Assembly: GCF_045037415.1 (NCBI RefSeq)
Contig: NZ_CP173440.1
DNA from: Escherichia coli
GTDB lineage: Bacteria; Pseudomonadota; Gammaproteobacteria; Enterobacterales; Enterobacteriaceae
Direction: 5' to 3' (one strand)
DNA length: 64,000 nucleotides
The notes beneath the pieces are model-generated. The model was given only the letters and a program-made list of their open reading frames with translations, searched no databases and was not told where the DNA came from. The stretch's first letter is position 1. The number at the start of each line of letters is the position of its first letter. The translations under genes and the position numbers were made by a program. Below, piece by piece: positions 55,423-61,404 of the stretch.

Positions 55423-56214
55423 TTGAATCATCCTGTAGAGTCAGTATATAGCGCTCTGACGAGTATTTTATTGCCCTATATGGGTGAGCCTGTGCCTGTG
55501 CAACGAAATTGCTCATGCTGCGGCAGAGCTCCCTCAGAGTTCGACGGGGTAGGCTTCGAGCTGGTCAACGCCTACAGGGAACGTGTTGTGCATTGCCGCC
55601 CTTGCCAGACATTTTTTGTTTCTGCTCCAGAGCTGATGGGCGTGGAGAACCCCAAAAAACCAACAACCGGCCAGAAATTTGGCATGTGGTCTGGTGTTGG
55701 GGCTGTTATTAACGTTGAAGACAATTCTTCGGTTCTTTTAGCCCCTCAGGGAGTGGTCAATAAACTACCTGAGCATTTTTTCGATCACGTAGAAGTCATC
55801 ACGGCCACCAGCGGTCAGCATCTGGAATACCTGTTTAACACCGAACTGAAATTCCCGCTGATTTATATTCAAAACTTCGGCGTGAAAACCTACGAGCTTG
55901 TTCGCTCACTGCGGGTCAGTCTGAGTGCCGACGCAATTTATACCTGTGCCGATCAACTACTCACCCGGCAGAACGAAGTCCTTTACATGCTGGATTTAAA
56001 AAAGGCTAAAGAACTCCATCAGGAAATAAAAAACTACTCCAAGAAAGAGATGGATATCTTTATCAGAACAGTAACCCTGCTGGCCTATTCGCGGATAACT
56101 CCTGAAGCCGCCTCGAATGAGTTTAAGAAAAACAACCTCATTCCGTTACTGCTGCTTCTGCCGACTGATCCCCATCAACGCCTGAGCATTTTGCACCTCT
56201 TGAAAAAGGTATGA
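55423..56214 (+). CDS. csf1: type IV-A Csf1 (Cas8-like large subunit)
   Basis: Zinc-finger CSCCGR...HCRPCQ near the N-terminus. First gene of the cas operon; TTG start after a GGAGGGGGAG SD. Confidence 0.75.
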   Translation: MNHPVESVYSALTSILLPYMGEPVPVQRNCSCCGRAPSEFDGVGFELVNAYRERVVHCRPCQTFFVSAPELMGVENPKKPTTGQKFGMWSGVGAVINVEDNSSVLLAPQGVVNKLPEHFFDHVEVITATSGQHLEYLFNTELKFPLIYIQNFGVKTYELVRSLRVSLSADAIYTCADQLLTRQNEVLYMLDLKKAKELHQEIKNYSKKEMDIFIRTVTLLAYSRITPEAASNEFKKNNLIPLLLLLPTDPHQRLSILHLLKKV

Positions 56215-56783
56215 CCATGATTTTCTACGATAATGCGTTTCGGTTGCGTATCTCTCACACAAGTGTTTACCGGATCCACCAGCACCTGGATTTTTTCATG
56301 CAGGAACGTAAGGGAGAGAAGCTGCCGTACTCTTTTAAAATTTTTCCCGGTACCGGGAATGATTCGAGACTGCTGGTCCGCACAGCCACAGCTCTGGAGC
56401 TGCCAGGGGAGAAAAAAAGAGAGCTTACTCTCTCTGAGGGCCATGAAATTAAGTTCATTACGTCAATGGCCATCTTTCATAAAGGAACAAAGTTAGAAGG
56501 CCATGGCCGACGCCAGTTTGCTCCATCTGATGAAGCGAGTTATCAGATGGCCCTCACCAAATTAGCGAAGGCTGGTCTTGACTCCCGTCAAATCGTCGTG
56601 AGTGGCCCGGAATTCGTCCATATCGACAAGGGCAATGCTCGCCGTGGTTTTATGCTTCCTGTCTTCACTGTTCAGGGGGCCGCCACTATCAGCAATCAAC
56701 AGGAAGCTGAAATGGCCATCGTTTATGGCGTCGGCCCTAAACGCGTTTTTGGTTGTGGTTTCATGCATCTGGCAGGGGAGTAG
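56211..56783 (+). CDS. cas6: Cas6 (Cas6e-like) crRNA endoribonuclease
   Basis: 190 aa. C-terminal glycine-rich loop GVGPKRVFGCGFMHL as in Cas6e. 4-nt overlap with csf1. Confidence 0.75.
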   Translation: MTMIFYDNAFRLRISHTSVYRIHQHLDFFMQERKGEKLPYSFKIFPGTGNDSRLLVRTATALELPGEKKRELTLSEGHEIKFITSMAIFHKGTKLEGHGRRQFAPSDEASYQMALTKLAKAGLDSRQIVVSGPEFVHIDKGNARRGFMLPVFTVQGAATISNQQEAEMAIVYGVGPKRVFGCGFMHLAGE

Positions 56784-56785
56784 TC

Positions 56786-59365: not shown

Positions 59366-60397
59366 ATGAGAACTTTAAACTTCAACGGTAAAATTTCGAC
59401 TCTGGAACCACTGACTGTAACAGTAAAAAATGCGGTCTCAACTTCCGGCCATCGCTTGCCTCGTAACGGTGGATTCAATGCAGCCCCGTACTTTCCAGGT
59501 ACCAGCATTCGGGGAACTCTTCGTCATGCTGCGCATAAGGTCATTGTCGATCGTGTGGGCCTTAATGCAGACGGAAAATCACCTTTCGACCTGGCAGAAC
59601 ATTTCATGCTGGCCCAGGGGGTGGATATCAATGGTGAAGCCGAAACCTTCGCGCCAGGTGAAATCAATGCTGGTGCTGAACTACGTAGCAAAAACCCGTT
59701 AATCAGCTTGTTTGGTCGTTGGGGATTAAGCGGCAAAGTTGGTATAGGGAATGCTATCCCGGATGGTGATAACCAGTGGGGGATGTTTGGTGGGGGTGCC
59801 CGCTCAATTATGTTTCAGCGTGACGAAAGTCTGATGGAGTTTCTTGAGACAGACCAGGTTGATCGTCTGGAACGCCTGCTCGAGGAACAGGCTGAGGCAA
59901 GTGTGGATATCTCTCAGATCAAAACAGAGCAGGATGCACTCAAAAAGGCGATGAAGTCGGCTGATAAAGACACCAAAGCTGAGCTTCAAATCAAAGTACG
60001 GGAGCTCGATGAAAAAATTCAGGCCCGCAAAGATCAGAAGCAGGAATCTCGCGAGTCAATTCGCCGCCCGATTGACCCGTATGAAGCGTTTATCACCGGC
60101 GCAGAACTCAGCCATCGCATGAGTATTAAAAATGCGACTGATGAGGAAGCAGGGCTTTTCATTTCTGCATTAATCCGCTTTGCAGCCGAACCACGTTTTG
60201 GCGGTCATGCGAATCATAACTGCGGTCTGGTGGAGGCTCACTGGACAGTTACGACCTGGAAGCCGGGTGAACTGGTACCAGTTACACTTGGAGAAATCGT
60301 CATCACACCGAATGGTGTTGAGATTACCGGGGACGAGTTGTTTGCTATGGTAAAGGCATTCAATGAAAATCAATCTTTTGATTTCACTGCCCGCTAA
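59366..60397 (+). CDS. csf2: type IV-A Csf2 (Cas7 backbone subunit)
   Basis: 343 aa. RAMP glycine loop FPGTSIRGTLRHAAH. Last gene before the leader. Confidence 0.8.
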   Translation: MRTLNFNGKISTLEPLTVTVKNAVSTSGHRLPRNGGFNAAPYFPGTSIRGTLRHAAHKVIVDRVGLNADGKSPFDLAEHFMLAQGVDINGEAETFAPGEINAGAELRSKNPLISLFGRWGLSGKVGIGNAIPDGDNQWGMFGGGARSIMFQRDESLMEFLETDQVDRLERLLEEQAEASVDISQIKTEQDALKKAMKSADKDTKAELQIKVRELDEKIQARKDQKQESRESIRRPIDPYEAFITGAELSHRMSIKNATDEEAGLFISALIRFAAEPRFGGHANHNCGLVEAHWTVTTWKPGELVPVTLGEIVITPNGVEITGDELFAMVKAFNENQSFDFTAR

Positions 60398-60462
60398 CTC
60401 CAAAAGCTGGTGGATTTTAGTGGCGCTATTTAATATTTTATAATCAACCGGTTATTTTTAGA
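60398..60462 (+). promoter_or_regulatory. CRISPR leader
   Basis: AT-rich 65 bp between the csf2 stop and repeat 1. The degenerate repeat is at the far end of the array. Confidence 0.6.
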
Positions 60463-61404
60463 GTATTCCCCCCGTGTGCGGGGGTTATCGGCAACCTCAA
60501 TTCCTAATGGCTGTCTAAGGAAAGTATTCCCCCCGTGTGCGGGGGTTATCGGCAGGGTTTGCCCTTTTGCACCGCGCAGCGGTCGTATTCCCCCCGAGTG
60601 CGGGGGTTATCGGAGCAACGTTTCCGGATTATATGGCTGGAACGTGTATTCCCCCCGTGTGCGGGGGTTATCGGTGGTGCTCTCAACCGTCACCCGCTGG
60701 CTGGAAGTATTCCCCCCGTGTGCGGGGGTTATCGGTGGTGTTGTCCACGGTCACCCGCTGGCTGGAAGTATTCCCCCCGCATGCGGGGGTTATCGGGCAC
60801 CCTCACGGATACCTTTTGCACAGTGTTAGTATTCCCCCCGCATGCGGGGGTTATCGCCTTAGAGAAGCAAAAACCCCACCGAGGCAGGGGTATTCCCCCC
60901 GTGTGCGGGGGTTATCGGTTACTTTTTGGCAGTTGGTAAAACACTTTTGCGTATTCCCCCCGCATGCGGGGGTTATCGGCGAAAACGGCAACCTTCATAA
61001 AAACGTCTTTTGTATTCCCCCCGTGTGCGGGGGTTATCGGCCGAGATTGAGTAAAGCAAAGTAACGGCGGTGGTATTCCCCCCGCATGCGGGGGTTATCG
61101 GCAGCGTCTGAACGGACGAAACATCCCTGTTGAGTATTCCCCCGTCTGCGGGGGTTATCGGCGAGCGCTCTCCTGGTAAATCGGTAGCTCGGAGTATTCC
61201 CCCCGCATGCGGGGGTTATCGGGCTGGATTTCCGTCAGTTGGTCAGCTGCTGCTGTATTCCCCCCGTGAGCGGGGGTTATCGGTTCCGGACTCCTGTTTC
61301 CGGCAGTGGATTAAAGTATTCCCCCCGCATGCGGGGGTTAACGGCACTACCAGATCCGAATGGACACCCGTAATGAGTATTCCCCCCGCACGCGGGGGTA
61401 TCGA
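60463..61404 (+). CRISPR. CRISPR array: 16 repeats of 29 bp (GTATTCCCCCCGTGTGCGGGGGTTATCGG) and 15 spacers of 32 bp
   Basis: Strict 61-bp period from 60463. Repeat 12 is 28 bp. Repeat 16 is degenerate (GTATTCCCCCCGCACGCGGGGGTATCGA). Confidence 0.97.

What the first reader, a model, noticed from the sequence alone, without database searches (positions are those of the whole stretch)
55423..61404. Plasmid-borne type IV-A3-like CRISPR-Cas (csf1-cas6-dinG-csf3-csf2 plus a 15-spacer array) with no adaptation or nuclease genes
**What is seen.**
- Five co-directional, overlapping or abutting ORFs.
- Csf1 has a zinc finger (CSCCGR...CRPCQ).
- Cas6 has a Cas6e-like glycine-rich C-terminus.
- DinG has Walker A (SAETGVGKTLGY) and a DEAD box (IIDEADIF).
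- Csf2 has a Cas7 RAMP loop (FPGTSIRGTLRH).
- A 65-bp AT-rich leader follows, then 16 repeats of 29 bp with 32-bp spacers at a strict 61-bp period.
- I found no cas1, cas2, cas3 or cas10 anywhere in the 64 kb.

**From memory of the type IV literature.** This gene order and an I-E-like repeat (hairpin plus 7-nt handle TTATCGG) are those of subtype IV-A3 on Klebsiella/Enterobacteriaceae megaplasmids. That subtype silences competing plasmids through DinG rather than cutting them, and borrows host type I-E Cas1-Cas2 for spacer acquisition.

**Other observations.** The locus sits in a defence-rich context (EcoRII-like R-M, second methylase, HigBA-like pair). It is flanked by copies of the plasmid palindrome.
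Basis: partly seen in the sequence, partly recalled or inferred. Interest (0 to 1): 0.8.

Follow-up and report, generated by a model that had tools for sequence, protein, structure and literature searches.

The report
Known Klebsiella plasmid type IV-A3 CRISPR-Cas

Summary

- **Genes.** Five co-directional genes lie at 55423-60397. They match the subtype-specific profiles Csf1_IVA3, Cas6_IVA3, Csf4_IVA, Csf3 and Csf2_IVA3 at E 1e-85 to 1e-262.
- **Solved structures.** Csf1, Csf2, Csf3 and DinG are essentially identical to the cryo-EM structures of the K. pneumoniae IV-A3 complex (8rc2, 8s35-37). DinG matches at 622/624 residues.
- **Array.** A 65-nt AT-rich leader is followed by 16 repeats and 15 spacers of 32 nt. 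The period is 61 bp except for one 60-bp unit.
- **Repeat structure.** The repeat folds into a 6-bp hairpin followed by the 7-nt UUAUCGG tag seen in the structures.
- **Missing genes.** No Cas1, Cas2, Cas3 or Cas10 domain occurs in the other 72 ORFs of the window.
- **Distribution.** At least 3544 plasmid records match part of the locus and 406 hold at least 80% of it. The window is part of an IncFIB/IncHI1B plasmid.
- **Targets.** Ten spacers have identifiable targets: IncF traL, traE and a DUF6685 gene, small ColE1-type plasmids, and temperate Klebsiella phages. Nine of the ten carry a published permissive PAM, and four are AAG.

Minor corrections:
- dinG starts at 56786.
- The period is not strictly 61 bp.
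- Only one palindrome copy truly flanks the locus.

The parts
55423..56214 (+). csf1 (Cas8-like large subunit, 263 aa, TTG start). Its N-terminal zinc finger is CSCC...CRPC.
   Evidence: PADLOC Csf1_2_IVA3 at E 1.8e-122 and Csf1gr8 at 5.5e-151. PDB 8rc2_G full length at E 3.9e-178. Cys pairs at residues 30 and 58. The zinc-finger N-terminal domain contacts the PAM (PMC11519345).
56211..56783 (+). cas6 (Cas6e-like crRNA endoribonuclease, 190 aa, or 188 aa from the ATG at 56217).
   Evidence: PADLOC Cas6_0_IVA3 at E 7.8e-86 and Cas6e at 7e-10. Pfam PF08798 at E 2.3e-7 over residues 97-188. There is no PDB sequence match because Cas6 could not be modelled in the IV-A3 map.
56786..58660 (+). dinG / csf4 (SF2 5'-3' helicase, 624 aa). 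Walker A GVGKT is at residue 43 and DEAD is at 215-218.
   Evidence: PADLOC Csf4_0_IVA at E 1.1e-262. 622/624 residues identical to PDB 8s35_M. Pfam DEAD and Helicase_C_2. D215/E216 are the residues mutated by Benz et al..
58654..59361 (+). csf3 (Cas5, 235 aa, GTG start).
   Evidence: PADLOC Csf3gr5 at E 7.2e-125. PDB 8rc2_F full length at E 7.2e-151.
59366..60397 (+). csf2 (Cas7 backbone subunit, 343 aa).
   Evidence: PADLOC Csf2_1_IVA3 at E 6e-151. PDB 8rc2_A at E 9.8e-231. TIGR03115 cas7_csf2 at E 2.4e-13, which is below its cutoff.
60398..60462 (+). CRISPR leader: 65 nt, GC 0.32.
   Evidence: New spacers enter at the leader-repeat junction in the experiments of Benz et al..
60463..61404 (+). 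CRISPR array of 16 repeats and 15 spacers of 32 nt. The consensus repeat is GTATTCCCCCCGTGTGCGGGGGTTATCGG, with loop variants GTGT, CATG, AGTG, TCTG, TGAG and CACG.
   Evidence: Each repeat folds as a 6-bp stem and 4-nt loop followed by the 7-nt UUAUCGG.

Best explanation

Proposed mechanism. Only the anatomy and the spacer matches were shown here. Everything else is taken from experiments on a near-identical system.
1. The array is transcribed from the leader.
2. The Cas6e-like Cas6 cuts each repeat at the 3' base of its hairpin. This yields crRNAs with a 7-nt UUAUCGG 5' tag, a 32-nt guide and a 3' hairpin.
3. One Csf3 (Cas5), one Csf1 (Cas8), about six Csf2 (Cas7) and Cas6 assemble on the crRNA.
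4. Csf1 and Csf3 read a 5'-AAG-like PAM, and the complex forms an R-loop on double-stranded DNA.
5. DinG is then recruited. No DNA is cut.
6. Binding at promoters blocks transcription initiation. Inside genes, DinG helicase activity is needed to shut down expression.
7. Silencing of conjugation genes (traL, traE), of other plasmid genes and of phage genes blocks the transfer, establishment or stability of competing IncF and ColE1-type plasmids. It also limits temperate phages.
8. The plasmid carries no cas1-cas2. New spacers are installed in trans by the Cas1-Cas2 of a chromosomal type I-E system of the host.
For: **Shown here**
- Subtype-specific profile hits for all five proteins.
- Near-identity to the solved IV-A3 complex.
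- All five ORFs are intact and tightly packed.
- The repeat hairpin leaves exactly a 7-nt tail, matching the 7-nt tag in PMC11519345.
- No Cas1, Cas2, Cas3 or Cas10 domain in the rest of the window.
- The whole 5982 bp is identical to plasmid p5419/18_1 apart from one spacer unit.
- At least 3544 plasmid records match part of the locus and 406 hold at least 80% of it. They are 95% Klebsiella and mostly conjugative.
- Ten of 15 spacers have targets. S14 hits traL, within a search in which 2750 records matched at 99% identity or more. S15 hits traE. S03 and S13 hit a DUF6685 gene. S09 hits an IncF gene next to ccdAB. S04 and S05 hit small ColRNAI plasmids. S10 and S12 hit Klebsiella temperate phages. 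S07 hits an E. coli phage.
- Nine of the ten 5' flanks are permissive PAMs (P = 5e-5) and four are AAG (P = 1e-5).
- R07 ends in C, and the nearest S07 protospacer has C at PAM position -1. That is the type I-E signature of carrying the last PAM base into the array.
- No spacer matches the window itself.

**From the literature**
- crRNA maturation, CRISPRi-type silencing, the DinG requirement, Cas1/2e acquisition in trans and the NAAG PAM.
- The wider PAM set AHN, KAG and AGG.
- Restriction to IncHI1B/IncFIB plasmids and a GC content of 47.7%, the same value as found here.
Against: - Nothing in the sequence argues against this explanation.
- Expression, crRNA processing and interference were not measured for this particular plasmid.
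- Whether the host chromosome carries type I-E cas1-cas2 cannot be seen from a 64-kb window.
- Five spacers (S01, S02, S06, S08, S11) had no non-array match in the sampled plasmid and phage hits.
- The S07 match is weak: two mismatches and a non-permissive AGC flank.
- DinG differs from the solved protein at two residues (412 and 435), both outside the named motifs.
Confidence: 0.95

Rival explanations
1. The locus is a remnant or degenerate type I-E system, as the public annotation 'type I-E CRISPR-associated protein Cas6/Cse3/CasE' and the I-E-like repeat might suggest. It would then act by Cas3-mediated DNA degradation.
For: PGAP names the Cas6 gene as type I-E. Cas6 hits the Cas6e Pfam family. 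The repeat is 29 nt, the spacers are 32 nt and the PAMs are AAG-type, all as in I-E.
Against: The other four proteins hit type IV models, not Cse1, Cse2, Cas7e or Cas5e. They are identical to the type IV-A3 structures. No Cas3, Cas1 or Cas2 is present in the 64 kb. A DinG helicase sits where a nuclease would be.
Confidence: 0.01
2. The locus is intact but silent or non-functional on this plasmid. It would be a hitch-hiking cassette with a frozen array that no longer gains spacers or interferes.
For: - No adaptation genes are present.
- The array differs from those of sister plasmids only by losses of single units, not by new leader-proximal spacers.
- Decayed versions exist, such as K. michiganensis CP106839.1, which keeps only 129 bp of csf1 and three degenerate repeats.
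- Two DinG substitutions separate it from the tested protein.
Against: - All five ORFs are complete and 100% identical at the DNA level to those of other circulating plasmids.
- Near-identical systems are constitutively expressed and active.
- S14 matches traL perfectly, with a permissive ATG PAM, in a search where 2750 plasmid records matched at 99% identity or more. This means the targets are current.
Confidence: 0.04

Closest known systems
Type IV-A3 CRISPR-Cas of K. pneumoniae plasmid p1530 (Benz et al. 2023/2024; structures 8rc2, 8s35-8s37, Cepaite et al. 2024)
   Same: - Same gene order: csf1-cas6-dinG-csf3-csf2-leader-array.
- Csf1, Csf2 and Csf3 match over their full length at E 1e-151 to 1e-231, and DinG is 622/624 identical.
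- Same 29-nt repeat class and 7-nt 5' tag.
- AAG-type PAMs.
- No adaptation module.
- Same IncHI1B/IncFIB plasmid background.
   Different: - The spacer content of the array differs.
- DinG has two substitutions (D412 and H435 here, N and Q in the solved chain).
- Local context here: IS4321 upstream, and a group II intron between the array and umuDC.
Type IV-A3 loci surveyed by Newire et al. 2020 (IncHI1B/IncFIB plasmids of Enterobacteriaceae)
   Same: - Same plasmid type.
- Spacers against IncFII(K) traL.
- AAG PAM.
- Association with IS elements and group II introns.
- GC of 47.7%, identical to the value computed here.
   Different: None of substance. This array is one more deletion variant of a shared ancestral array.
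Type IV-A1 CRISPR-Cas (Pseudomonas oleovorans / P. aeruginosa)
   Same: A DinG-dependent, nuclease-free CRISPRi mechanism and a Csf1/Csf2/Csf3 effector.
   Different: - IV-A1 uses a Csf5-type Cas6, an 8-nt tag and five Cas7 subunits.
- The IV-A1 DinG models score far lower here: E 1e-16 to 1e-17 against 1e-262.
Type I-E Cascade (E. coli / K. pneumoniae chromosome)
   Same: A Cas6e-like processing enzyme, 29-nt repeat and 32-nt spacer geometry, an AAG PAM, and incorporation of the last PAM base into the array. It is also the source of the Cas1-Cas2 that IV-A3 borrows.
   Different: Type I-E has Cas3, Cse1, Cse2, Cas1 and Cas2, and it degrades its target. None of these genes is present here.

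Membership tests
Type IV CRISPR-Cas | Csf1 (Cas8-like) signature large subunit together with Csf2 (Cas7) and Csf3 (Cas5) | tested here: met
   PADLOC Csf1_2_IVA3 at E 1.8e-122, Csf2_1_IVA3 at 6e-151 and Csf3gr5 at 7.2e-125. PDB 8rc2 chains G, A and F match over their full length.
Subtype IV-A | DinG (Csf4) helicase encoded in the operon in place of a nuclease | tested here: met
   PADLOC Csf4_0_IVA at E 1.1e-262. 622/624 identity to 8s35_M. Walker A and DEAD motifs are present.
Variant IV-A3 | Cas6e-like Cas6 (not Csf5) and the gene order csf1-cas6-dinG-csf3-csf2-array | tested here: met
   PADLOC Cas6_0_IVA3 at E 7.8e-86 and Pfam PF08798 at 2.3e-7. The gene order was read.
Variant IV-A3 | I-E-like repeat (29 nt, hairpin, 7-nt tag) with 32-nt spacers | tested here: met
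   Array dissection. Fold of 6-bp stem, 4-nt loop and 7-nt tail. The 7-nt tag is reported in PMC11519345.
Variant IV-A3 | No cas1/cas2 adaptation module and no Cas3 or Cas10 nuclease in the locus | tested here: met
   Pfam scan of the 72 other ORFs of at least 90 aa found no Cas1, Cas2, Cas3 or Cas10 family at E<=1e-5. The PADLOC Cas1_IIIb hit is the RT part of LtrA. PGAP annotation of the identical plasmid lists none.
Variant IV-A3 | 5'-AAG-type PAM next to protospacers on plasmids and phages | tested here: met
   Four AAG, three AGG, one ATG, one AAA and one AGC among ten protospacers. Nine of ten fall in the published permissive set, P = 5e-5.
Variant IV-A3 | Carried on large IncHI1B/IncFIB conjugative plasmids of Enterobacteriaceae | tested here: met
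   The window is colinear at 100% identity over the 25 kb tested (20001-45000) with NZ_CP117741.1, an IncFIB/IncHI1B, MOBH, MPF_F plasmid. A RepB initiator lies at 52234-53385.
Variant IV-A3 | crRNA maturation, DinG-dependent transcriptional silencing, and in-trans acquisition by host Cas1/2e | not testable with these tools
   These are published for the near-identical p1530 system. They were not measured for this plasmid, and the host chromosome is not in the window.

The most novel reading that the evidence does not exclude
The IV-A3 locus might be wired into a plasmid-wide regulon. The 11-bp palindrome AAAGTWACTTT has 25 copies in 64 kb against 0.05 expected, and most copies are intergenic. 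One copy lies inside dinG (57074-57084) and another lies 71 bp after the last repeat (61475-61485). The second copy is conserved even in a decayed locus of a K. michiganensis plasmid. If an unidentified plasmid protein binds these sites, it could modulate expression of the downstream genes csf3, csf2 and the array, or end array transcription. That would be a layer of control not described for type IV-A3.
Probability: 0.08. Interest if true: 0.45.

Novelty: already known. Interest (0 to 1): 0.1.

Why it matters
The locus adds nothing new to biology. This exact system has been described bioinformatically (2020), dissected genetically (2023-2025) and solved by cryo-EM (2024).

Its practical value is for annotation:
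- It marks the window as part of a Klebsiella IncHI1B/IncFIB resistance megaplasmid.
- Public records still label four of the five cas genes 'hypothetical' or 'helicase' and mislabel cas6 as type I-E.
- The spacer list predicts which competitors this plasmid excludes: IncFII(K)/IncFIB(K) plasmids through traL and traE, ColE1-type small plasmids, and lambdoid Klebsiella prophages. That is relevant to the epidemiology of resistance plasmids.

Tried and rejected
- **Curated general libraries.** Pfam and NCBIfam gave only weak or sub-threshold hits for Csf1, Csf3 and Csf2. The subtype-specific PADLOC/CRISPRCasTyper models and the PDB sequences were decisive.\n- **Cas6 in the PDB.** There was no sequence match. 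Cas6 was not modelled in the IV-A3 map.\n- **Self-targeting.** No spacer matches the window outside the array at up to 8 mismatches.\n- **Strand bias of targets.** All seven plasmid protospacers (six distinct sites) lie on the coding strand, but all three phage protospacers are antisense. I therefore make no claim. Benz et al. report interference on both strands.\n- **The 143-aa P-loop ORF upstream (54929-55360) as a possible accessory gene.** Rejected. Its homologues are all close relatives (most 86% identical or more). It also occurs in plasmids where the cas genes are missing or decayed, so it belongs to the plasmid backbone.\n- **The apparent 'replacement' of spacer 6 relative to p5419/18_1.** This is explained by alternative single-unit deletions from a 16-spacer ancestor that is still partly seen in NZ_CP117741.1.\n- **The PADLOC 'Cas1_IIIb' hit.** Rejected as Cas1. 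Only profile positions 8-263 of 617 matched, which is the RT domain, and the hit lies in LtrA.\n- **Palindrome in the literature.** A search for the palindrome sequence found nothing relevant.\n- **Spacers without targets.** Targets for S01, S02, S06, S08 and S11 were not found in the sampled rows. The plasmid searches show only 60 rows each, so absence is not proven.
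Full report

Yes. The ORF list shows five co-directional + strand genes:

| Gene | Coordinates | Length |
|---|---|---|
| csf1 | 55423-56214 | 263 aa |
| cas6 | 56211-56783 | 190 aa |
| dinG | ORF 56753-58660 | 624 aa from the real start |
| csf3 | 58654-59361 | 235 aa |
| csf2 | 59366-60397 | 343 aa |

- The solved DinG chain and the PGAP annotation both start at the ATG at 56786. That is the real start.
- The junctions are a 4-nt overlap, a 2-nt gap, a 7-nt overlap and a 4-nt gap.
They are the CSCC and CRPC cysteine pairs in Csf1, GVGKT at residue 43 and DEAD at 215-218 in DinG, and FPGTSIRGTLRH in Csf2.

The array and its leader:
- The 65-nt leader (60398-60462) has GC 0.32 against 0.455 for the window.
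- There are 16 repeats (60463-61404) and 15 spacers, all 32 nt.
- The period is 61 bp for 14 of 15 units. Repeat 12 has lost one C and is 28 nt, which gives one 60-bp unit.
- Repeat 16 is a degenerate 28-mer. Repeat 7 ends in C instead of G.
- The repeat occurs nowhere else in the window on either strand.

**2. What is it?**

- The general libraries are weak on type IV proteins. Pfam sees only the Cas6e family for Cas6 and helicase domains for DinG. NCBIfam Csf2 and Csf4 score below their cutoffs.
- The subtype-specific models in PADLOC are unambiguous:

| Protein | Model | E-value |
|---|---|---|
| Csf1 | Csf1_2_IVA3 | 1.8e-122 |
| Cas6 | Cas6_0_IVA3 | 7.8e-86 |
| DinG | Csf4_0_IVA | 1.1e-262 |
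| Csf3 | Csf3gr5 | 7.2e-125 |
| Csf2 | Csf2_1_IVA3 | 6e-151 |

- Csf1, Csf2 and Csf3 match chains of PDB 8rc2/8s35-37 over their full length.
- DinG is 622/624 identical to 8s35_M.
- Those entries are the K. pneumoniae IV-A3 effector of Cepaite et al. 2024 (PMC11519345).
- Cas6 has no PDB match. It could not be modelled in that map.

**3. Where does it sit?**

- The 5982-bp locus matches 3544 plasmid records, and 406 of them cover at least 80% of it. 3376 of the 3544 are Klebsiella and most are conjugative.
- Over the 25 kb tested (20001-45000) the window is colinear at 100% identity with NZ_CP117741.1, an IncFIB/IncHI1B, MOBH, MPF_F plasmid of 341 kb. That record carries one extra ISKpn26 insertion. 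Its CRISPR-Cas locus matches at 99.0%.
- Upstream of the locus lie repB (52234-53385, - strand), IS4321 (53287-54634) and a 143-aa P-loop ORF (54929-55360).
- Downstream lie a group II intron and umuDC.
- Against p5419/18_1 the locus is identical at every base except the 32 nt of spacer 6. Comparing three arrays shows that each is a different single-unit or multi-unit deletion of a 16-spacer ancestor.

**4. Absence of adaptation and nuclease genes**

- I translated the 72 other non-nested ORFs of at least 90 aa and scanned each against Pfam and PADLOC.
- Pfam found 20 families at E<=1e-5. None was Cas1, Cas2, Cas3-HD or Cas10.
- PADLOC listed a 'Cas1_IIIb' hit. It belongs to LtrA and covers only the RT part of an RT-Cas1 model, positions 8-263 of 617.

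**5. Spacer targets and PAMs**

I searched the spacers as N-separated concatenations against PLSDB and the phage collection. I then fetched representative targets.

| Spacer | Target | 5' flank |
|---|---|---|
| S03 | DUF6685 gene of IncFIB/IncFII plasmids | AAG |
| S04 | 222-bp gene upstream of an integrase on small ColRNAI plasmids | AGG |
| S05 | the same gene, a different allele | AGG |
| S07 | E. coli phage, two mismatches | AGC |
| S09 | gene next to ccdAB on IncFIA/FII plasmids, two mismatches | AAG |
| S10 | temperate Klebsiella phages, 100% | AAG |
| S12 | temperate Klebsiella phages, 100% | AAA |
| S13 | DUF6685 gene of IncFIA/IncFII plasmids | AGG |
| S14 | traL of IncF plasmids, 100% | ATG |
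| S15 | traE, one mismatch | AAG |

- The S14 search returned 2750 records at 99% identity or more, and almost all sampled rows were the traL hit.
- The flanks are the three bases 5' of the protospacer on the strand identical to the spacer.
- Nine of the ten flanks fall within the experimentally permissive set AHN, KAG, AGG, GAC, GTG (PMC12714566). The binomial P is 5e-5. Four AAG among ten gives P = 1e-5.
- The C at the end of repeat 7 matches the C at position -1 of the nearest S07 protospacer. That is expected if a type I-E Cas1-Cas2 installed the spacer together with the last PAM base.

**6. Mechanism**

- The repeat folds into a 6-bp stem and a 4-nt loop, followed by exactly 7 unpaired bases, UUAUCGG. 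All loop variants and the 28-nt repeat keep the stem.
- This matches the 7-nt 5' tag seen by cryo-EM and RNA-seq.
- The rest of the mechanism is taken from experiments on the near-identical p1530 system:
  - mature crRNAs and a Cas8-Cas5-Cas7(6)-Cas6 complex;
  - recruitment of DinG after target binding;
  - transcriptional repression without cutting;
  - DinG needed inside transcribed regions but not at promoters;
  - blocking of conjugative transfer, establishment and stability of target plasmids, and interference with phage;
  - spacer acquisition by host Cas1/2e.
- Newire et al. 2020 had already reported the restriction to IncHI1B/IncFIB plasmids, the traL and traN spacers, the AAG PAM, the association with IS elements and group II introns, and a locus GC of 47.7%. 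The operon here is 47.7% GC.

**7. Comparison and novelty**

- Every sequence-testable defining feature of IV-A3 was tested and met. Only the functional features could not be tested.
- The locus is a member of the family, not merely similar to it. It is essentially the same allele as the model system.
- Novelty: already known. The interest score of 0.8 is not.

**8. Things seen in passing**

- The palindrome AAAGTWACTTT occurs 25 times in the window against 0.05 expected.
  - About 20 of the 25 copies lie between the ORFs of at least 90 aa.
  - There are clusters at 31127-31875 and beside repB.
  - One copy lies inside dinG and one lies just after the array.
  - The library holds no paper that uses this motif in a plasmid context.
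- The group II intron (61738-63646) is inserted immediately 3' of the umuDC LexA box. Intron-less sites in two related plasmids define the junction exactly.
- Two identical inverted IS4321 copies bracket a segment that is inverted relative to p5419/18_1.
- A K. michiganensis plasmid shows a decayed version of the locus.

Noticed in passing
window, 25 sites (e.g. 338, 2466, 31127-31875, 51306-52161, 57074, 61475): The 11-bp palindrome AAAGTWACTTT occurs 25 times against 0.05 expected. About 20 copies lie between ORFs. Six cluster at 31127-31875 and four lie beside repB. One copy lies inside dinG and one lies 71 bp after the last CRISPR repeat, and that one is conserved in a K. michiganensis plasmid. 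It looks like the operator of an unidentified plasmid-wide DNA-binding protein. No paper was found that uses the motif in a plasmid context.
   Followed up: partly
window 61738-63646 (Rfam RF02005 at 61771-61996; ltrA 62101-63588): A group II intron on the + strand is inserted immediately after the LexA box of umuDC (TACTGGTTATATATACAGT, 61719-61737) and before the umuD start. Intron-less sites in L015 and L016 define both junctions. The box here reads CTGG where the intron-less relative has CTGT.
   Followed up: partly
window 26436-27783 and 53287-54634: Two 1348-bp copies of IS4321 (IS110 family) are 100% identical and lie in inverted orientation. At least window 26436-43415 of the roughly 25.5 kb between them is inverted relative to plasmid p5419/18_1. 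This is consistent with IS-mediated inversion.
   Followed up: partly
window 60675-60706 (S04) and 60736-60767 (S05): Adjacent spacers differ at only four positions (6, 8, 11, 14). They match two alleles of the same protospacer, with an AGG PAM, in a 222-bp gene upstream of an integrase on small ColRNAI plasmids. The same site was therefore sampled twice from variant plasmids.
   Followed up: partly
window 60829-60857 (R07) and L010 1498-1532: Repeat 7 ends in C instead of G. The closest protospacer of spacer 7, in E. coli phage SaltyDalty with two mismatches, has an AGC flank. The odd repeat end therefore looks like a PAM base carried in during type I-E-style acquisition.
   Followed up: partly
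L015 9001-10215 (K. michiganensis plasmid CP106839.1); also L016: This is a decayed IV-A3 locus. The 143-aa ORF is followed by only the first 129 bp of csf1, which carries an expanded GTGCCT hexamer repeat. Then come three degenerate CRISPR repeats, the terminal repeat, and umuDC without the intron.
   Followed up: yes
window 54929-55360: A 143-aa ORF with a P-loop (GPSRSGKT) sits directly upstream of csf1. Some sources call it 'NB-ARC domain protein'. Only close homologues exist, most 86% identical or more. It also occurs where the cas genes are missing or decayed, so it is plasmid backbone and not a cas accessory gene.
   Followed up: yes
window 60797-60828 (S06) vs L001 25375-25406 and L013 11835-11927: Sister plasmids carry an extra spacer (AGGTATTTGACCTCATCCAGAAAGGCACAGAC) that is absent here, and they lack S06 or S02-S04. 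The arrays diverge by loss of repeat-spacer units, not by new leader-end spacers.
   Followed up: yes
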